Of a stretch of DNA of 64,000 nucleotides, positions 11,331-28,429 are shown one piece after another. The notes beneath the pieces were generated by a model. The model made no database searches, was not told the origin of the DNA, and worked only from the letters and a program-made list of their open reading frames with translations. The number at the start of each line of letters is the position of its first letter. Within the stretch, counting starts at the first letter, position 1. Both the position numbers and the translations under genes were made by a program. Origin of the DNA: Escherichia coli (GTDB taxonomy: Bacteria; Pseudomonadota; Gammaproteobacteria; Enterobacterales; Enterobacteriaceae); the NCBI RefSeq assembly GCF_003018255.1, contig NZ_CP027440.1; one strand, given 5' to 3'.

Positions 11331-11373
11331 CAGACTCCAGCTACCTACCACGAGATTGTCACTGACACGACAG

Positions 11374-11397
11374 TTTATGCGGTGCGCATAAACTCAG
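11374..11397 (+). repeat. Conserved inverted-repeat motif TTTATGCGGTGCGCATAAA(C)TCAG, copy 1 of 2
   Basis: Matches 49043-49066 (19/19 bp plus flanking TCAG) in the same orientation; both copies lie in intergenic DNA bounding ICE operons. Confidence 0.5.
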
Positions 11398-16034: not shown

Positions 16035-16160
16035 AGTAGTATCAGAAAAATTTAGCAAACTGTCAAAATTTTTCTGAGACCCCTTTTGGTAACGGACTAT
16101 CTTGTTGTTTTTAAAATAATATTTAATGTAACAAATATGTAGTCTCTCTCTGGTCCTGGC

Positions 16161-16197
16161 TGGCAACGTGCTTAAGTGGTTCACGTTGCCAGTTTTT
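16161..16197 (+). terminator. Hairpin plus T-run in the recombinase-to-fimbrial-subunit intergenic region
   Basis: tggcaacgtg...cacgttgcca stem followed by agttttta; could instead be part of a switch element. Confidence 0.35.
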
Positions 16198-21255: not shown

Positions 21256-22203
21256 ATGAGAAAAATTCTTTTCTTCCTGCTGTTGATGATAGCCGTCCTG
21301 CCGGAGGTTCAGGCCACCTGTTCGTTCTACGGTGGTGTGACATCAGAAGTATCGGGTTACCTGAATTTCGGCAACGTGGTTATCCAGCGGGATGCACAGG
21401 TCGGCAGCACGATTGCCACTGCCATTACAGGGGCATACAACAATGGCGACGGCATTGCCGGGTGTAAGCGGGAGGCCTGGACCGCCCGCTGGGAACTGAC
21501 GCAATGGGGGACGCTGAGTGGCTATGGGAATGGTGTCTACAACACCAACCTGCCAGGGGTAGGATTACGTCTGAGTGCGGCCTCGACAGGTAAAACATTG
21601 CCCTATGAAACCAGCTACGCCTACAACGCTGGCGGCACCTGGGTATCCATTCCCGGTGATGGCATCAAGGGCGAGCTTATCAAAACCGGGGATATCACCA
21701 GCGGTACATTAACGGACGGTGTGCTGGCGCGCGCTTCGGTAGTGAATCAGTTTTATTTTGCCAACGTCACGTTGAACGGGATGAACACAGTGAAATCAGA
21801 AGCTTGTACTGTGACCACGCCCTCTGTTGATGTCCCGATGGGGGATCACGATAAAAGCGAATTCAGTGGTGCGGGATCTTCAACCGACTGGGTGAGCTTT
21901 GATATTGGTTTGAGCTGCGATGTCGGGGCGAGAATAAACGTACGTATCGATGCCACTGCGGATGCTTCCGCCGGTTCGCAAGGCGTCATGCTGATTGATA
22001 GCGGCGGGGCGTCTGGCGTGGGGATACAACTTCATTACCGCCCGGATGATGCCGCTGTCCAGTACGGTCAGGAACGGTTTTACTGGCAGTCGGTATATGG
22101 TGACGAGATCGTGCAGCTTAAGGCGCGATATTACCAGACTGCAGGCTCGATCACGCCAGGTGCGGCAAACGGTACGGCGACGTTTACGATGAGTTATAAA
22201 TAG
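21256..22203 (+). CDS. Fimbrial minor subunit / adhesin-like protein 2 (paralog of previous)
   Basis: Signal peptide MRKILFFLLLMIAVLPEVQA; C-terminal pilin domain ATFTMSYK matching the previous gene. Confidence 0.7.
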   Translation: MRKILFFLLLMIAVLPEVQATCSFYGGVTSEVSGYLNFGNVVIQRDAQVGSTIATAITGAYNNGDGIAGCKREAWTARWELTQWGTLSGYGNGVYNTNLPGVGLRLSAASTGKTLPYETSYAYNAGGTWVSIPGDGIKGELIKTGDITSGTLTDGVLARASVVNQFYFANVTLNGMNTVKSEACTVTTPSVDVPMGDHDKSEFSGAGSSTDWVSFDIGLSCDVGARINVRIDATADASAGSQGVMLIDSGGASGVGIQLHYRPDDAAVQYGQERFYWQSVYGDEIVQLKARYYQTAGSITPGAANGTATFTMSYK

Positions 22204-22214
22204 CGCGTAATCAT

Positions 22215-23762
22215 ATGGAATATTCTATGTCGGATATTGTCGCCGGGAACAGGATTGCTGCTCAATATTTAAGAATGTCTACCGAGCATCAGAAATATTC
22301 GCCGGAGAACCAGCGGGAATATATCGAGAAGTATGCAAAAGAACACTGTATTACCATTAAATATACCTATGACGACGCTGGCCGAAGTGGGCTGAGCCTG
22401 GATAACAGGCCTGGCCTGCGTTCGCTGTTATATGATGTTGAAAACGGAATAATAAAAGTCTCGTTAATTCTTGTTTACGATGTCAGTCGGTTTGGTCGTT
22501 TTCAGGATATTGAAGAGGCTGCTCATTACTCGTGGCTACTGAAGCGTAATGGTGTGCGCATTATTTATTGCGCGGAGCCTTTCTCGGAAGAACAGACCGA
22601 ATTGTTTATGCTGGGATTATCTTACTCCCGCTATGGCGCCGCAACTTACAGTAAAAACCTTTCACAAAAAGTTTTTCTTGGCCAGGCAAACCTCGTTCGG
22701 CGGGGTTATTATCAAGGTGGTATGCCTGGCTATGGCATTCGGAGATTATTAATTGATGAACATACTAATCCGAAAGGCATGCTTCTGCCGGGGCAAAGGA
22801 AAAGCCTGCAAACTGACAGAGTAATATTGATCCCGGGGCCCGCGGAAGAGGTGGTAATAGTCAATAAAATCTATGACATGTTTATTGATGAGGGCAAGCC
22901 TGAGTTTGTTATTGCTTCAGAACTGAACCGGAAGAACATCCCCGCCGAGAATGGGCTCCAGTGGAGCCGATGTAAAATTCATCAGATACTGACCAATGAA
23001 AAATATATTGGCAATAATGTTTATAACAGAACCTCCGGACGATTGAAGACCCGAAGTGTCAGGAATCCTCAGGATCAGTGGATCAGATGTGACGGCGCGT
23101 GGGACCCTGTGGTATCAGTAGAGAAATTTGAGGCGGCTAAAAGGATTATTGAAGCCAGGGCCGTTCAGTACAGTGATGATGAACTGCTGGATAAACTACG
23201 CCATCTGCTGAAGCTTCGTGGCAGATTATCCGGGATTGTGATTGATGAAGAGGAACTGTTTCCATCGAGCAGCATTTTTCGTTCACGGTTTGGTGGGTTA
23301 GTCAGGGCTTACACCCTTATTGGTTATCACCCGCGCCATGATTACTCTTATCTTGAAATAAAAAAGCAGATTGCAGAATGCCATCTCACTTTCATGGATA
23401 ATTTGGTGCAGGATATATACCGATATGGCGGTTGGGCAGAGATGCATCAGGATGGTTCATTATATATTAATGATGAGTTTTTTGTTTCCGCTAATCTGGT
23501 TCGCTGCCAACGTTTGTCGTCAGGTAAGCTTCGTTGGAAGATAAAATTTAATGTATCCCATTATTGTGATGTCATGATCTTTCCACGGTTGGATAGCACA
23601 AATAACTCCGTGGTTGATTACTTTATGTTTCCGGCTATTGATGTGTTGTATAACGATTTAACGCTTCATGAGAACAATGGTTTTATCCTCGAACTATATC
23701 GATTTGATGATTTGTCATGTCTGGAAAATCTTGTAAAACGAACTGGTCTGGAGAGTAAATAA
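22215..23762 (+). CDS. Large serine recombinase (resolvase/invertase catalytic domain plus recombinase domain)
   Basis: N-terminal AAQYLRMSTEHQ...YDDAGRSGLSLDNRPGLRSLL...YDVSRFGR matches the serine-recombinase catalytic domain; 515 aa; starts 11 bp after the fimbrial operon. Confidence 0.8.
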   Translation: MEYSMSDIVAGNRIAAQYLRMSTEHQKYSPENQREYIEKYAKEHCITIKYTYDDAGRSGLSLDNRPGLRSLLYDVENGIIKVSLILVYDVSRFGRFQDIEEAAHYSWLLKRNGVRIIYCAEPFSEEQTELFMLGLSYSRYGAATYSKNLSQKVFLGQANLVRRGYYQGGMPGYGIRRLLIDEHTNPKGMLLPGQRKSLQTDRVILIPGPAEEVVIVNKIYDMFIDEGKPEFVIASELNRKNIPAENGLQWSRCKIHQILTNEKYIGNNVYNRTSGRLKTRSVRNPQDQWIRCDGAWDPVVSVEKFEAAKRIIEARAVQYSDDELLDKLRHLLKLRGRLSGIVIDEEELFPSSSIFRSRFGGLVRAYTLIGYHPRHDYSYLEIKKQIAECHLTFMDNLVQDIYRYGGWAEMHQDGSLYINDEFFVSANLVRCQRLSSGKLRWKIKFNVSHYCDVMIFPRLDSTNNSVVDYFMFPAIDVLYNDLTLHENNGFILELYRFDDLSCLENLVKRTGLESK

Positions 23763-24649
23763 TGAAATCTTTTGATGAACAGATAGAACTTGTCGATATC
23801 AGTGATATTTATATCGCAAATCCACGGAAAAGGAATAAATTCATTCATAATGAAATAAAAGAGAACATAAAAACCATTGGTCTGAAACGGCCTGTTAGCG
23901 TGCGCCCAGTGAATAATGAAAACTATAAATATGCCCTGATTTGTGGTCAGGGACGACTTGAAGCGTATATTGAGTATGGTGAAACGAAAATTCCTGCAAT
24001 CATCAAGCAGGTTGATGAAGAGACAGCGCACCTGATGAGCCTGGCTGAAAACATCGCAAGACGTAATCCCCGGGCGGCAGAGCTAATGGAAGATATCAGA
24101 AGAATGAAGACCAGTGGCCTGACCGATCGTGAAATAGGCTTGCGGCTTGGGTATAATTCGAGTTGGGTAAATGGGGTGATCACTCTGTTGTCATCCGGAG
24201 AGAAGCATCTTTTGCGGGCATTTGAGACTGGCGATATTCCCTTGTATCTTGCTGTGGAAATATCCCGGTCAGGAGATGAGGAAACTCAGGAACTGCTGAC
24301 GGTCGCCCTGAAAGAAGGACATATCAAGGGTGGGCAAATTAATAAGATCAGGCGCATACTTGAACAACGTAAGAAAGGCGATAAAGGTACGATTAGTACG
24401 GCTTTTTTTCCTGGGAAAAAACAGAAAAAACTGACCCCGGAAGAACTGGCTAATGTCTACCAGGAAAACATTAATGAGCAAAAAGCCATTCTGCTGAAAT
24501 CCACAATGGTTAAAGAGAAAATTCTGGCAGTAAAGCAAATATTTGGTTATTTACTTAAAGATAATGATTTTGTTACATTGCTGCACAGTAATAATATCCA
24601 CGATATTCCTTCTTTACTGGATGGCAGTGATGTATCGGGGGAGAAATAA
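23762..24649 (+). CDS. ParB/Srx-fold (ParB N-terminal-domain-like) protein 1
   Basis: Motifs ELVDISDIYIANPRKRN, GLKRPVSVRP, ICGQGRLEA (arginine-finger-like) and an HTH-like GLTDREIGLRLG; TAATG overlap with the recombinase stop. Confidence 0.65.
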   Translation: MKSFDEQIELVDISDIYIANPRKRNKFIHNEIKENIKTIGLKRPVSVRPVNNENYKYALICGQGRLEAYIEYGETKIPAIIKQVDEETAHLMSLAENIARRNPRAAELMEDIRRMKTSGLTDREIGLRLGYNSSWVNGVITLLSSGEKHLLRAFETGDIPLYLAVEISRSGDEETQELLTVALKEGHIKGGQINKIRRILEQRKKGDKGTISTAFFPGKKQKKLTPEELANVYQENINEQKAILLKSTMVKEKILAVKQIFGYLLKDNDFVTLLHSNNIHDIPSLLDGSDVSGEK

Positions 24650-24650
24650 G

Positions 24651-25541
24651 ATGATTTCACAATGTTTTGACTCCCGATTTTATACCTTTAAGGTGGAATC
24701 ACTGGTGTATGCCAGAACGCTGCCGGTTAATGTTAAATTCAGTACGAAGTACAAACAAATTAAAGCCTCTGTCGATGAAATTGGGTTAATTGAACCCATT
24801 GTGGTTTATATCAATGACGCCAATGATAAAGTCATTCTGGATGGACATCTTCGCGTTGAAGTTTTGAAAGAACTCGGAATAACTACTGCTCATTGTCTGA
24901 TATCCCCTGTGGAGGATACATATTCATATAACAAACGTGTTAGTCGCCTTACCATTGTGCAGGCCCAAAACATGCTGCTTAAAGCGGTTGAATCTGGCGT
25001 TTCAGTTGAAAAACTATGCGCCGTACTGGGTGTCACGCCAGATACGCTGATTGGTAAACTGAAAATTTCTGATGGCATTGCCCCTGAAGTCATGGCGTTA
25101 CTGGCAGAAAAAAATGTACCGCAGACCATTTTCTCTGTGTTGAAAAAACTAAAGTTCTATAAGCAGATAGAAATGGTTAACACCATGATCAGTATTAATA
25201 ATTTCACCCGCAAATTTGCGATGTCGATGCTGCATGCCGTTGCCCCTGAACATCTTGTAGCGCCTAAAAAAGATGCCAGCAGAGAAACAGATATCAGAAA
25301 AAATCTCGAAAGACTGGAAAAAGAAATGGCTTCCGTTCAGGTGGAAACGCAGCATCTTCAGGATGAATATGCTGAGAATAACCTTCGGCTGGTTATCATT
25401 AAAAATCACATTGAACGTCTGCTGGCGAACGGTCAGGTACTTAACTGGCTTTATGATAACCATCAGGAGTACCTTTCTGTGCTCAAGCAAATCTCGGGGC
25501 TGGATGATTTGAATAAGCTTGGCCAGACAATTGAGGAATGA
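24651..25541 (+). CDS. ParB/Srx-fold protein 2
   Basis: IEPIVVYINDANDKVILDGHLRVEVLKELG is ParB-box-like; start 2 bp after the previous stop. Confidence 0.6.
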   Translation: MISQCFDSRFYTFKVESLVYARTLPVNVKFSTKYKQIKASVDEIGLIEPIVVYINDANDKVILDGHLRVEVLKELGITTAHCLISPVEDTYSYNKRVSRLTIVQAQNMLLKAVESGVSVEKLCAVLGVTPDTLIGKLKISDGIAPEVMALLAEKNVPQTIFSVLKKLKFYKQIEMVNTMISINNFTRKFAMSMLHAVAPEHLVAPKKDASRETDIRKNLERLEKEMASVQVETQHLQDEYAENNLRLVIIKNHIERLLANGQVLNWLYDNHQEYLSVLKQISGLDDLNKLGQTIEE

Positions 25542-25740
25542 CACATTTTTAAAGCAAGGACTGCTGTTTTACAGATTGCCACTATGATGGGATGCACTGA
25601 GAGAGGAGGGCGTGCTGGTGGTTGACGTGATTCAACTGGTGCGGAAAATCTTGCTCAAAGGACGATGGCTTAAAATCAAGTTGCTGTTTCAAAAATGAAA
25701 AAGTAGATTTACATCCACTTTTCTTACTGAGGTAAAAATA

Positions 25741-26199
25741 GTGCATATAGATGCGGATTTCATAAGCTTGAGCACATTGGTGGCTAATCAACAAGCTGCA
25801 AAATGGGCGGGGGTTGCTGCTATTGCTGCCTGTTTGACGTTTGTTGTGACAACGATAGGTTTACTACTTGCTTGGCGGTCGTTGCATCAGTGGAAGCCTC
25901 AATACAAAGAAAACTCTAGACTTCTCCTAATCGAAGCTTTAATCGCATTTCAGAAATGTTTAATAACTATACCAAAAAATCTCGATAACGATCCCACCTA
26001 TCAAAGCCGAAAGGAATTTTTGAAGGCAAGTACTGAAGTTGAGCTAAGAGGACAAATATATCTTAAGCAACACAGCAACGAAAAATTAAAAGATGAATTA
26101 GCAAATCTCAGGAGTAAATGTGCAGAATTTGTTGGTGGTAAGGTGACTAAACCTGAACTGTCATTCATCTCAGCAATAATATTACTCATTGAAGTATAA
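25741..26199 (+). CDS. Hypothetical membrane-anchored protein (GTG start)
   Basis: One transmembrane segment AAIAACLTFVVTTIGLLLAW; AT-rich; possibly a fourth gene of the recombinase module. Confidence 0.35.
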   Translation: MHIDADFISLSTLVANQQAAKWAGVAAIAACLTFVVTTIGLLLAWRSLHQWKPQYKENSRLLLIEALIAFQKCLITIPKNLDNDPTYQSRKEFLKASTEVELRGQIYLKQHSNEKLKDELANLRSKCAEFVGGKVTKPELSFISAIILLIEV

Positions 26200-26222
26200 T
26201 AGATTCTGGGCTAACACCAATC

Positions 26223-26256
26223 GGTTACCCGGTTGGGATATCGCTTCCGGGTAACC
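26223..26256. repeat. Perfect 10-bp inverted repeat GGTTACCCGG-N14-CCGGGTAACC, followed by a second hairpin (about 26256-26283)
   Basis: Seen directly; lies at the boundary between the AT-rich recombinase module and the creatininase gene. Confidence 0.4.
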
Positions 26257-26301
26257 TGTGGAAAGGCAAAAGCCACTCCACAGGTTGCCCGAGCATATCG
26301 A

Positions 26302-27093
26302 TTACATGTTTGCGTCTTTATTTAACGCATATTGCCAGTTAGCTGCATCCAGCTTTCTCAGCAACGCGCAAAGCACATCCACCAGACAGGCGAGGATCCG
26401 CTGGCCTTTTTCCGCCGTGGCGCAGCGCGGATCGCCGGTTGCTCCGGTGGCGCTGATTTCCCCGATATCCCAGATCCGGTTCACGCCATAATCAGCGAAC
26501 ACCTCCACCGGGATCTGTTTCTGCGCATATTTCAGTTCCACCAGCTCCGGAATCAGCGCCATCATGACGGACGTTTCGCCCTCGCCGCCGTGTCCTAGTC
26601 CGGTGTTATCCCATGAGTCGAAAAATCCCTTCCCGAGATGATGTCCCACCAGATCCCACCACGCCGGAACCACGACAATCGCTGCCTGCGTATGTCGGGC
26701 CTTCACATTGCGGGCGGCGATTTCAATCGCCGGAATATTACCGTCATGGCCGTTAATCACCAGGATCCGGCGAATACCGTGGTGCAGCAGGCTGATGAAG
26801 ATATCTTCCGCCAGCGCGATATTGGTCTCGTAGCGTAGGGTGACCGCCAGTGGATAGGCATTGTAGTGAACGGATGTGCCGAACGGCGTGCAGGGCAGCA
26901 CAAGGGTATTATCCACCCGCTGCGCCACCCGGCAGGCGACGATTTCGGGTACAAACATATCGGGGCCGAGTGGCAGGTGATCGGCGTGGTTCTCACAACT
27001 GCCGAAGTTGACGATAGCAGTGAGTTCCTTACCAGACTGCAACAGCTCGCGGATTTCCCGGCCAGTCAGTTCATTGAGCATGACTTTTTTCAT
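26302..27093 (-). CDS. Creatininase-family amidohydrolase
   Basis: Family motif TAIVNFGSCENHADHLPLGPD and LVINGHDGN; start MKKVM with AGGAGG ribosome-binding site. Confidence 0.7.
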   Translation of the reverse strand: MKKVMLNELTGREIRELLQSGKELTAIVNFGSCENHADHLPLGPDMFVPEIVACRVAQRVDNTLVLPCTPFGTSVHYNAYPLAVTLRYETNIALAEDIFISLLHHGIRRILVINGHDGNIPAIEIAARNVKARHTQAAIVVVPAWWDLVGHHLGKGFFDSWDNTGLGHGGEGETSVMMALIPELVELKYAQKQIPVEVFADYGVNRIWDIGEISATGATGDPRCATAEKGQRILACLVDVLCALLRKLDAANWQYALNKDANM

Positions 27094-28429
27094 CGGACAG
27101 CCTCCTGTTTTTTCGGACGACAAAGATGTAGTACGCGCTGGCGAGGGCCAGCCAGATCAGGACGGTAACCAGGGTAATGCCGCCGCCGTCGGTGAAAAAT
27201 TGCCCGGCCATGATCAGCGCAATCAGCCCCACGGTGAGTGGCTGGATGTAGCGGGCGGCCGGAGCCTTGTATTTCAGCGTTCCGTCGTGCAGGGCTATTC
27301 GGTGCAGGGTGGGCTGGCTTAAGGCAATCATCAGCCAGGTGAACAGAAAGCCGAATCCGGAAATCCCGGCGAGGATGACATACGCATCTGGCGAGAGAAT
27401 GGCGATGATGACGCCGGTAAACAGCACCAGGCTGCTGGCAAGAATGGCGTTATCCGGTGTTTTATGTGCCGGGTGCAGGCGGGCAAACCAGGCCGGGAAA
27501 TAGCCGTCAGACGCCATGGCGTGCAGCATCCGCGAGGTGGCGTAAACCCCGGTATCGATGCAGGAGAGCGCGGCGGTCAGCACCACAAAGTTCATGATAT
27601 GCCGCGCCATATGGCCACCGAGAATGCCGGAAGCTTCGACATACGGGCTGCTGCTGACACCTGCCTGCTGCCAGGGGAGAACGAGCAGCAGAACGGTCAA
27701 TGAGCCGACATACAGCAACAGGATCCGCACCACGGTGCCACGCAGCGTACGAGGAATATCACGCTGTGGGTTCTCGCTTTCACCCGCGGCGGTGCCGATG
27801 GCCTCTGTCCCGCCGAAAGAGAAAATCACCATTAACATCGCGCCGAGAAATCCGGGCAGCCCGCCAGCAAAAAAGCTGCCGCTGTCGGTCGGATGACTGA
27901 TGCTGGCGGGTGAGGCGTTATCCAGTCCCAGGCTGTAGCAGCCCGCGACGATAAAGGCCAGCAGCGCCACGACTTTCACCAGGCTCAGCCAGAACTCCAC
28001 TTCACCGAAAAAATGAACGCCGACCATGTTGATGGCAGTCAGCGACGAAGCGATCACCAGGCAAAACAGCCAGACGGGGACTCCGGGAAACCACAGGTTC
28101 AGGAAGGTGCCTGCAGCGATGGCCTCCGACGCCGGGCCAATCAGGAAGGCCAGCCAGTAGGTCCACCCGGTGATAAAGCCACACCATGGGCCAAAGGCGG
28201 TGCGGGCATAGGATTCAAAGGAACCGGAGACGGGCCTGGCGACCGCCATTTCGGCAAGCAACAGCATAATGAACAGGGTGATGACACCGCCGATAAGGTA
28301 GGCCAGCACCACCGACGGCCCGGTACGGGCAATGGCCGCGCCTGCGCCGAGGAAAAATCCGGCACCAATCACGCCTCCCACGGAAATCATCGTCAGGTGA
28401 CGGGCTTTCAGACTTCTGTTGAGTTCCAT
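27071..28429 (-). CDS. Amino-acid permease (APC superfamily)
   Basis: 452 aa with about 12 transmembrane segments; N-terminal LTMISVGGVIGAGFFLGAG is a typical APC signature. Confidence 0.8.
   Translation of the reverse strand: MELNRSLKARHLTMISVGGVIGAGFFLGAGAAIARTGPSVVLAYLIGGVITLFIMLLLAEMAVARPVSGSFESYARTAFGPWCGFITGWTYWLAFLIGPASEAIAAGTFLNLWFPGVPVWLFCLVIASSLTAINMVGVHFFGEVEFWLSLVKVVALLAFIVAGCYSLGLDNASPASISHPTDSGSFFAGGLPGFLGAMLMVIFSFGGTEAIGTAAGESENPQRDIPRTLRGTVVRILLLYVGSLTVLLLVLPWQQAGVSSSPYVEASGILGGHMARHIMNFVVLTAALSCIDTGVYATSRMLHAMASDGYFPAWFARLHPAHKTPDNAILASSLVLFTGVIIAILSPDAYVILAGISGFGFLFTWLMIALSQPTLHRIALHDGTLKYKAPAARYIQPLTVGLIALIMAGQFFTDGGGITLVTVLIWLALASAYYIFVVRKNRRLSDEKSHAQ

What the first reader, a model, noticed from the sequence alone, without database searches (positions are those of the whole stretch)
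26223..26283. Two consecutive strong hairpins at the boundary of the serine-recombinase module
GGTTACCCGG-N14-CCGGGTAACC (perfect 10-bp arms) is followed immediately by CTGTGGA-N14-TCCACAG. The structure sits between convergent transcription units and could be a bidirectional terminator, but the arm length and symmetry also fit a recombinase attachment site.
Basis: seen in the sequence. Interest (0 to 1): 0.3.

Follow-up and report, generated by a model that had tools for sequence, protein, structure and literature searches.

The report
Stem-loop between two convergent genes
The inverted repeats are real, but they fold best as one long stem-loop between two genes that face each other inside an E. 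coli conjugative element; it is most likely an ordinary transcript-end structure, not a recombinase attachment site.

Summary
The repeats exist exactly where reported. The second one is longer than described: AACCTGTGGA-N14-TCCACAGGTT, extending to 15-bp arms. It overlaps the right arm of the first by 4 nt, so the two hairpins compete rather than sit side by side. As RNA on either strand, or as DNA, the stable fold is a small hairpin (26217-26236) plus one long interrupted hairpin (26237-26299).

The window is an E. coli ICE. The structure lies between the stop codon of a 152-aa membrane-protein ORF (+ strand) and the stop codon of a creatininase operon (- strand). It is 680 bp beyond the recombinase-ParB-ParB trio.

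In four diverged orthologous lineages the long hairpin persists, while hairpin 1 is perfect only in this lineage. A variant ICE with a 99%-identical trio carries an unrelated hairpin at the same spot. Two trio-less variants also have stem-loops at the creatininase stop.

There is no partner site near 22.2 kb or elsewhere in the window, and the element is single-copy. Neither strand has a U-tract, so it is not a canonical intrinsic terminator. Best reading: a stem-loop that ends or stabilises the two convergent transcripts. Low interest.

The parts
26237..26299 (+). Long interrupted stem-loop: GATAT.CGC..CGGGTAACCTGTGGA..GGC-AAAA-GCC..TCCACAGGTTGCCCG.AGC.ATATC. It is the dominant fold on both strands and as DNA.
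   Evidence: MFE and centroid. It is present in the MFE of all four orthologous lineages. 86% of cells are paired and two pairs show compensatory change.
26248..26291 (+). Core of the long stem-loop: 15-bp arms CGGGTAACCTGTGGA / TCCACAGGTTGCCCG (one U.G) enclosing a GGC-AAAA-GCC tip.
   Evidence: I2: 20-nt arms, 85% complementary, 4 nt apart. Core alone scores -35.4 kcal/mol.
26217..26236 (+). Small hairpin CCAATCGG-TTAC-CCGGTTGG.
   Evidence: 83% of cells are paired in orthologues, many as G-U pairs on the + strand.
26223..26256 (.).
   Evidence: I12. It is outcompeted in every fold. The central A-U pair is present in 1 of 6 distinct orthologous sequences, and there is no compensatory change.
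26253..26286 (.). Perfect 10-bp inverted repeat AACCTGTGGA-N14-TCCACAGGTT.
25741..26199 (+). 152-aa ORF with a GTG start, an apparent N-terminal hydrophobic stretch (my reading of the translation; no TM prediction was run) and no Pfam family. It is the upstream convergent gene, and the stem-loop lies in its 3' untranslated region.
   Evidence: Homology to a Salmonella Senftenberg locus covers exactly the ORF (25739-26200) and not the hairpin.
26302..27093 (-). Creatininase-family gene, last gene of a PTS-IIA / amino-acid permease / creatininase operon. Its stop codon lies 3 nt from the base of the stem-loop.
22227..25541 (+). Large serine recombinase (22227-23762), ParB/RepB (23762-24649) and ParB/RepB-C (24621-25541). 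This is the 'serine-recombinase module'; it ends 680 bp before the stem-loop.
   Evidence: The same three-gene order occurs on plasmids of Agrobacterium, Pseudomonas and Paraburkholderia.
25528..26335 (.). Segment (ORF + stem-loop + last codons of creatininase) that is replaced by an unrelated PaiB-like gene plus a different hairpin in E. coli A31-type ICEs.

Best explanation
The feature is an intergenic stem-loop shared by the 3' ends of two convergent transcription units inside the cargo region of an ICEclc/PFGI-1-type integrative conjugative element of E. coli. One unit is a 152-aa membrane-protein ORF on the + strand. The other is a PTS-IIA/permease/creatininase operon on the - strand.

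When either strand is transcribed, the RNA folds into one long, very stable hairpin at 26237-26299, with a small neighbouring hairpin at 26217-26236. Its most likely job is to fix and protect transcript 3' ends and to keep the two units from reading into each other. In other words, it would act as a terminator or stabiliser stem-loop of the kind found between convergent genes.

Because no U-tract follows the stem on either strand, it would not work as a classical intrinsic terminator. Three routes remain open: polymerase pausing or collision at the stem-loop, partial Rho dependence, or blocking of 3' exonucleases as REP hairpins do.

Shown here: the anatomy, the fold, its position, its persistence in orthologues, and the recurrence of unrelated stem-loops at the same junction. 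Inferred: the effect on transcription or RNA stability.

The striking perfect 10-bp symmetry of 'hairpin 1' is a by-product of three copies of GGTTRCCCG. It rests on a single lineage-specific C-to-T change and is not a separate functional site.
For: Position: the stem base lies 3 nt from the creatininase stop and 18 nt after the ORF stop, between convergent genes.

Fold: the MFE is -53.8 kcal/mol (+) and -47.3 (-), with z-scores of -7.7 and -5.8. As DNA the z-score is -8.8.

Orthologues: loci that are colinear with the window at about 82-90% identity (Salmonella, K. michiganensis, metagenomes) all keep the long hairpin in their MFE on both strands. 86% of cells are paired, against 35-43% when the partners are slid by 1-3 columns. 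Two pairs show compensatory changes (C-G to U-A; U-A to C-G). All wobble pairs are G-U on the + strand, and the + strand folds 2-12 kcal/mol better in every lineage.

Recurrence: three other versions of this junction carry sequence-unrelated stem-loops next to the creatininase stop. A31 has CGGATGCCAGCGAA-N14-TTCGCTGGCATCCG (z -5.7 / -7.1). The 'empty' variant L021 (fimbrial gene | 60 nt | creatininase) scores z -1.9 / -2.7. The methyltransferase variant Res13 scores z -1.4 / -3.0.

Literature: stem-loops between convergent E. coli genes that do not resemble intrinsic terminators are described as bidirectional terminators (bioRxiv 10.1101/2022.10.23.513370). REP hairpins act as combined terminator and stabiliser in 3' UTRs (bioRxiv 10.64898/2026.03.23.713779).
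Against: There is no U-tract. Only 4-6 T occur in the 12 nt after the stem on the + strand and 2-3 on the - strand, and the consensus terminator scan does not call it.

Covariation is weak. There are only four lineages (six distinct sequences), and 31 of 500 shuffles reach the observed pairing. The stem is only modestly more conserved than its flanks: 54% of columns are invariant, against 35-47%.

Two of the four junction variants (L021, Res13) have only moderately significant folds.

No transcript data were available, so termination or stabilisation is inferred, not shown.
Confidence: 0.68

Rival explanations
1. Attachment or crossover site of the neighbouring large serine recombinase. The palindromic arms would bind a recombinase dimer, and the module would excise or integrate by recombination with a partner site near 22.2 kb.
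For: Hairpin 1 is a 34-bp near-palindrome (14 of 17 positions) centred on GAT|ATC (I12). The recombinase gene starts 24 bp after the point where the trio-less variant Res13 diverges, at 22203/4. It therefore sits at the extreme left of a variable block.
Against: No related sequence lies near 22.2 kb (longest shared word 8 nt) or anywhere in the window (at most 11 nt, E of 1.7 or more). A31-type ICEs keep the trio at 99.2% identity yet have no trace of this sequence. Homologous trios on plasmids lack the motif. The symmetry is lost in orthologues that keep the recombinase: 10-11 of 17 positions, with an A.C mismatch in 5 of 6 sequences. The structure is 36 bp or more inside the homology break and is separated from the trio by another gene. 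The trio-less variants are replacements, not clean empty sites.
Confidence: 0.03
2. A parS-like binding site for one of the two ParB/RepB-like proteins encoded just upstream.
For: ParB-family proteins bind palindromes (established knowledge). The site lies less than 1 kb downstream of the two ParB-like genes.
Against: The arguments are the same as for the att site. The sequence is absent from A31, which has near-identical ParB genes. It is absent next to homologous trios. It is single-copy. The substitutions seen in orthologues are tolerated as G-U pairs in RNA but break DNA symmetry.
Confidence: 0.03
3. A palindrome with no function: a relic of past rearrangement at a cargo hotspot, or a decayed mobile palindromic element (REP/MITE-like), retained only because divergence among the known copies is small.
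For: Covariation is not significant, and conservation is only slightly above that of the flanks. The segment lies in a mosaic hotspot with at least four alternative contents.
Against: It is single-copy in E. coli (2 of 5426 complete genomes, each once) and absent from the plasmid and phage collections, so it is not a repeat family there. Independent stem-loops recur at the same junction in unrelated sequence variants, which argues for a positional requirement. The stability is extreme (z about -7 to -9).
Confidence: 0.18
4. A regulatory RNA element in which alternative pairing of the three GGTTRCCCG copies (26223 with 26247, versus 26247 with 26283) switches between two folds. Examples would be a 3'-UTR-derived sRNA or an attenuator.
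For: Three copies of the motif allow mutually exclusive helices. G-U wobbles favour the + strand RNA.
Against: The alternative fold is about 22-29 kcal/mol worse and has zero ensemble probability. It is not available in the orthologues. No Rfam family matches; the best overlapping hits have E of 0.9-6, far below gathering scores.
Confidence: 0.05

Closest known systems
Bidirectional terminator stem-loops between convergent E. coli gene pairs (Ju et al. 2019, as cited in Wang et al., bioRxiv 10.1101/2022.10.23.513370)
   Same: It lies between the stop codons of two convergent genes. It encodes a stem-loop in the nascent RNA of both strands. It does not resemble a canonical intrinsic terminator, because it has no U-tract.
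   Different: No transcript 3'-end data exist for this locus. The stem is unusually long (about 26 pairs, interrupted) and asymmetric in stability, with the + strand folding better.
REP (repetitive extragenic palindrome) hairpins acting as 3'-UTR terminator/stabilisers (bioRxiv 10.64898/2026.03.23.713779)
   Same: It is a GC-rich imperfect palindrome in a 3' UTR between convergent genes, with a plausible dual role of limiting read-through and blocking 3' decay.
   Different: It is not repetitive: single-copy, present in 2 of 5426 E. coli genomes, with no similarity elsewhere. It is therefore not a member of the REP family.
Canonical Rho-independent (intrinsic) terminator
   Same: It is a stable GC-rich stem with a 4-nt apical loop, directly downstream of stop codons.
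   Different: No U-tract adjoins the stem on either strand. By contrast, the S. Senftenberg homologue of the upstream ORF is followed by a textbook GC hairpin flanked by A and T runs.
attP/attB sites of large serine recombinases
   Same: It has imperfect dyad symmetry over about 34 bp and lies near a large serine recombinase gene.
   Different: It has no partner, does not co-occur with the recombinase in A31 or on plasmids, does not sit at a junction, and its symmetry is not conserved.

Membership tests
Canonical intrinsic terminator | GC-rich stem-loop with a short (3-8 nt) loop just after a stop codon | tested here: met
   The long hairpin has an AAAA apical loop. Its base lies 3 nt from the creatininase stop, and the structure starts 18 nt after the ORF stop.
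Canonical intrinsic terminator | U-tract (at least 5 U in 8 nt) immediately 3' of the stem | tested here: not met
   The consensus scan does not call it. There are 4-6 T in the 12 nt after the stem on the + strand and 2-3 on the - strand.
Convergent-pair bidirectional terminator stem-loop | Lies between convergent genes and forms a stem-loop in transcripts of both strands | tested here: met
Convergent-pair bidirectional terminator stem-loop | Overlapping transcript 3' ends from both directions map at the stem | not testable with these tools
   No transcriptome data are accessible.
Large serine recombinase attachment site | A partner site sharing a core, at the other end of the element or elsewhere | tested here: not met
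   The longest shared word with 22100-22330 is 8 nt. Across the whole window the best matches are 11 nt or less (E of 1.7 or more).
Large serine recombinase attachment site | Co-occurs with, and is conserved alongside, its recombinase | tested here: not met
   A31 has the trio at 99.2% identity but an unrelated sequence here. Plasmid trios lack the motif. The symmetry decays in orthologues.
Large serine recombinase attachment site | Lies at the junction between element and flanking DNA | tested here: not met
   The homology breaks lie at about 25528, about 26335 and 22203/4. The hairpins are internal to the variable segment.
Large serine recombinase attachment site | Recombination by the cognate enzyme | not testable with these tools
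   This needs an in vitro or in vivo assay.
ParB parS site | A palindrome that accompanies the ParB genes across contexts | tested here: not met
   Absent in A31 and next to homologous trios.
REP/BIME/ERIC/MITE repeated palindromes | Many dispersed copies per genome | tested here: not met
   One copy each in 2 of 5426 E. coli genomes, and none in plasmids or phages. There is one copy per related locus.
Integron attC site | R'' (RYYYAAC) and R' (GTTRRRY) cores flanking the palindrome, with an IntI integrase nearby (core consensus from established knowledge) | tested here: not met
   No core pair flanks 26217-26299. The only tyrosine recombinase annotated in the 30-kb region examined is a 197-aa fimbrial-type invertase.
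Rfam RNA families | A match at or near a family's gathering score | tested here: not met
   The overlapping hits are eukaryotic families at E of 0.9-6 and 15-19 bits, against gathering scores of 50-90.

The most novel reading that the evidence does not exclude
The stable palindromes at the 3' end of each alternative insert may be structure-specific sites for cargo exchange. This ICE hotspot holds an ORF plus the long hairpin in the window, and a PaiB-like gene plus a hairpin with 14-bp arms and a 14-nt spacer in A31. The sites would be recognised by shape rather than sequence, in an attC-like way, possibly by the orphan recombinase-ParB-ParB trio.
Probability: 0.03. Interest if true: 0.6.

Novelty: new member of a known kind. 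Interest (0 to 1): 0.1.

Why it matters
It matters little in itself. It is one more intergenic stem-loop separating convergent genes, in a rare E. coli ICE variant. The useful outcome is negative: the eye-catching perfect 10-bp symmetry is not a recombinase site, and the real structure is a single long hairpin. The surrounding locus is more interesting than the hairpin. It is a cargo hotspot with at least four alternative contents, and it holds a widely distributed, uncharacterised serine recombinase + two ParB/RepB-like gene trio.

Tried and rejected
1. Partner-site search. Word and blastn-short comparison of 26200-26345 against 22100-22330 and against the whole window gave only chance-level words.

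2. Repeat-family hypothesis. Distant blastn of the 106-bp intergenic region against E. coli genomes, plasmids and phages returned only the locus itself. A viral-contig pattern scan found 0 matches.

3. Rfam at a permissive E-value found nothing meaningful.

4. A genome-contig scan with the recombinase found only a 1-kb fragment and a distant clostridial relative, neither useful.

5. PADLOC found no defence-system match for the trio or the ORF, apart from a weak ParB-N/methyltransferase-like hit.

6. Integron attC cores were not present.

7. I looked for the hairpin downstream of homologous trios on plasmids and did not find it.

8. Two literature searches for the recombinase-ParB-ParB trio returned no paper describing it.

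9. The covariation test on four lineages was suggestive but not significant.

10. L015 appeared to show an inverted second copy of the trio. It is a fold-back contig whose start and inversion junction fall at the same coordinate (window 24586), so I treated it as an assembly artefact.

Full report
**What is in the sequence.** The finding's coordinates are accurate.
- GGTTACCCGG lies at 26223-26232 and CCGGGTAACC at 26247-26256: perfect 10-bp arms with a 14-nt spacer.
- CTGTGGA lies at 26256-26262 and TCCACAG at 26277-26283.
- A scan for perfect inverted repeats of at least 10 bp with 3-20 nt spacers finds 7 distinct loci (12 overlapping hits) in the 64-kb window. First-order Markov simulations give a mean of 1.2 hits. 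Two of the 7 loci are here.

That scan also shows the second repeat is larger than reported. It is AACCTGTGGA / TCCACAGGTT (26253-62 / 26277-86). With one T.G it extends to CGGGTAACCTGTGGA / TCCACAGGTTGCCCG. It therefore overlaps the right arm of hairpin 1 by 4 nt. A third copy of the motif (GGTTGCCCG, 26283-91) competes with the first copy (26223) for the same partner (26247-56).

**Which structure forms.** Folding gives the same answer for RNA on the + strand, RNA on the - strand, and single-stranded DNA. There is a small hairpin CCAATCGG-TTAC-CCGGTTGG (26217-36) followed by one long interrupted hairpin at 26237-26299 with an AAAA apical loop.

| Fold | Energy (kcal/mol) | z-score |
|---|---|---|
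| MFE, RNA + strand | -53.8 | -7.7 |
| MFE, RNA - strand | -47.3 | -5.8 |
| MFE, single-stranded DNA | -29.7 | -8.8 |

The pairs of hairpin 1 have probability 0.0 in the ensemble.

**Where it is.** The window is the chromosome of E. coli JNE23-011 (100% identity). The region lies inside an integrative conjugative element of the ICEclc/PFGI-1 type (TIGR037xx gene set) next to glgS. The cargo block reads, in order:
- a tyrosine invertase plus a fimbrial operon, ending at 22203;
- a large serine recombinase, 22227-23762;
- a ParB/RepB protein, 23762-24649;
- a ParB/RepB-C protein, 24621-25541;
- a 152-aa ORF with no Pfam family and an apparent N-terminal hydrophobic stretch (read from the translation; no TM prediction was run), 25741-26199;
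- the stem-loop;
- on the - strand, creatininase (26302-27093), an amino-acid permease and a PTS IIA component.

The structure is therefore truly between convergent genes. It starts 18 nt after one stop codon and ends 3 nt before the other. It is 680 bp beyond the recombinase trio, with an unrelated gene in between.

**Comparison within the ICE family.** Four versions of this junction were recovered.

1. The window type, found in only 2 of 5426 complete E. coli genomes but in many draft assemblies.
2. E. coli A31 and three other strains. These have the recombinase-ParB-ParB trio at 99.2% identity, but the segment from about 25528 to 26335 is replaced. In its place is a PaiB-like gene followed by an unrelated perfect hairpin, CGGATGCCAGCGAA-N14-TTCGCTGGCATCCG.
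3. Res13 and two metagenome contigs. These have no trio; a methyltransferase gene abuts the creatininase stop.
4. Metagenome contig L021. Here a fimbrial gene and creatininase are separated by only 60 nt, which contains a GC-rich hairpin.

All four have a stem-loop within a few nucleotides of the creatininase stop, although the sequences are unrelated. The z-scores on the + / - strands are:

| Variant | z (+) | z (-) |
|---|---|---|
| Window | -7.7 | -5.8 |
| A31 | -5.7 | -7.1 |
| L021 | -1.9 | -2.7 |
| Res13 | -1.4 | -3.0 |

(All.) Recurrence of structure without recurrence of sequence, at a fixed position relative to a stop codon, is what a transcript-end element would show. A recombinase or ParB recognition site would not behave this way.

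**Orthologues of the hairpin itself.** Homologues of the 152-aa ORF led to loci colinear with the window at about 82-90% identity. They come from Salmonella, Klebsiella michiganensis and metagenomes and give four lineages.
- In every lineage, and on both strands, the MFE contains the long hairpin centred at the same point. None except the window forms hairpin 1.
- For the long hairpin, 86% of cells are paired, against 35-43% when partners are slid by 1-3 columns. Two pairs change on both sides. Several pairs change from G-C to G-U.
Its central A-U pair exists in only 1 of 6 distinct sequences. All other lineages have C at the position corresponding to window 26252. That C pairs perfectly with the downstream GGTTGCC. 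So the perfect 10-bp symmetry of hairpin 1 rests on a single lineage-specific T.
- All wobble pairs are G-U on the + strand, and the + strand folds 2-12 kcal/mol better in every lineage. This hints that the 3' UTR of the ORF transcript is the more constrained RNA.
- The covariation statistics are weak, and I do not overstate them. There are only six distinct sequences, and 31 of 500 shuffles reach the observed pairing. 54% of stem columns are invariant, against 35-47% in the flanks.

**Tests of the attachment-site idea.**
- The suggested partner near 22.2 kb does not exist. The longest word shared with 22100-22330 is 8 nt, and nothing in the window exceeds 11 nt.
- The trio is retained at 99% identity in A31 without this sequence.
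- Recombinase homologues at about 46% identity, with the same three-gene order, occur on pAtC58, on P. aeruginosa megaplasmids and on a Paraburkholderia plasmid. None is followed by a similar motif or hairpin.
- The structure lies inside the swapped segment, not at a homology break.
- The trio-less variants are replacements rather than clean empty sites.
- The same facts argue against a parS-like ParB site.
- It is not a repeat family: it is single-copy in E. coli and absent from plasmids and phages.
- It has no Rfam match and no attC core sites.
- A 67%-identical homologue of the ORF in S. Senftenberg sits in an unrelated island. There, homology covers exactly the ORF, and a different, textbook terminator follows. 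So the hairpin does not travel with the ORF either.

**Mechanism.** No U-tract follows the stem on either strand, so this is not a canonical intrinsic terminator. It does fit two described kinds of element.
- One is the stem-loop of bidirectional terminators between convergent E. coli genes. These 'do not resemble intrinsic terminators' and need the stem-loop to position polymerase collisions (bioRxiv 10.1101/2022.10.23.513370).
- The other is the REP type of 3'-UTR hairpin, which both limits read-through and protects the upstream mRNA (bioRxiv 10.64898/2026.03.23.713779). It fits in function only; this hairpin is not a REP family member.

I therefore rate 'transcript-end stem-loop shared by two convergent units' at about 0.68. 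A functionless palindrome gets about 0.18. The att-site, parS and switch/sRNA readings get a few percent each. Function is inferred; 3'-end mapping and stem mutagenesis would settle it.

**Verdict.** The attachment-site half is not supported. This is an ordinary kind of feature and of low interest.

Noticed in passing
window 22227-25541; L018 4971-8319; L019 4956-8295; L020 4947-8324: A conserved three-gene unit consists of a large serine recombinase (about 511 aa; Resolvase + Recombinase domains) followed by two ParB_N/RepB-type proteins. It occurs in this E. coli ICE and, at about 46% recombinase identity with the same gene order, on plasmids of Agrobacterium (pAtC58), P. aeruginosa megaplasmids, Paraburkholderia, Sphingobium and others. 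On the three plasmids examined it has a small divergent ORF upstream, and on two of them (pAtC58, Paraburkholderia) it lies beside Abi/Fic/toxin-antitoxin genes. There is no PADLOC match, and two literature searches found no paper on it. Function unknown.
   Followed up: partly
window 22204-26335 versus L002, L003, L021-L023: The interval between the fimbrial operon and the creatininase operon of this ICE family is a cargo hotspot with at least four contents: nothing (60-nt hairpin only), a class I methyltransferase, trio + 152-aa ORF, and trio + PaiB-like gene. The A31 and Res13 replacements cut into the last 5-10 codons of creatininase, giving different C-terminal tails (…WQYALNKDANM, …WKYTAS, …WRHVPDR). 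The 'empty' L021 keeps a tail homologous to the window type.
   Followed up: partly
window 25741-26199; L011 6001-6459: The AT-rich 152-aa ORF with an apparent N-terminal hydrophobic stretch has a 67%-identical homologue in Salmonella Senftenberg, in an unrelated island near sopE and a HigB/HTH pair. DNA homology begins at the GTG start and ends at the stop. The ORF therefore moves as a bare gene, and GTG 25741 (not the annotated ATG 25780) is probably the true start.
   Followed up: partly
window 16042-16077 and 16160-16192: Two further perfect inverted repeats lie in the gap between the tyrosine-type DNA invertase and the first fimbrial gene: TCAGAAAAATTT-N12-AAATTTTTCTGA and CTGGCAACGTG-N11-CACGTTGCCAG. 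They may be terminators or parts of an invertible fimbrial switch.
   Followed up: no
L015 1-4559 (Logan contig ERR16052849_983): This is a fold-back contig. It runs window-equivalent 24586 to 27292 and then returns from 24586 to 22655 in inverted orientation, creating an apparent ParB-permease fusion. The contig start and the inversion junction fall at the same coordinate, so it is most likely an assembly chimera, not a recombinase product.
   Followed up: partly
window 11372-11394 and 590-674: A perfect 10-bp inverted repeat with a 3-nt loop (AGTTTATGCG…) lies just downstream of glgS, at the left edge of the ICE region. A tRNA-Leu(CAA) gene lies at 590-674. The ICE's own attachment sites were not mapped.
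   Followed up: no
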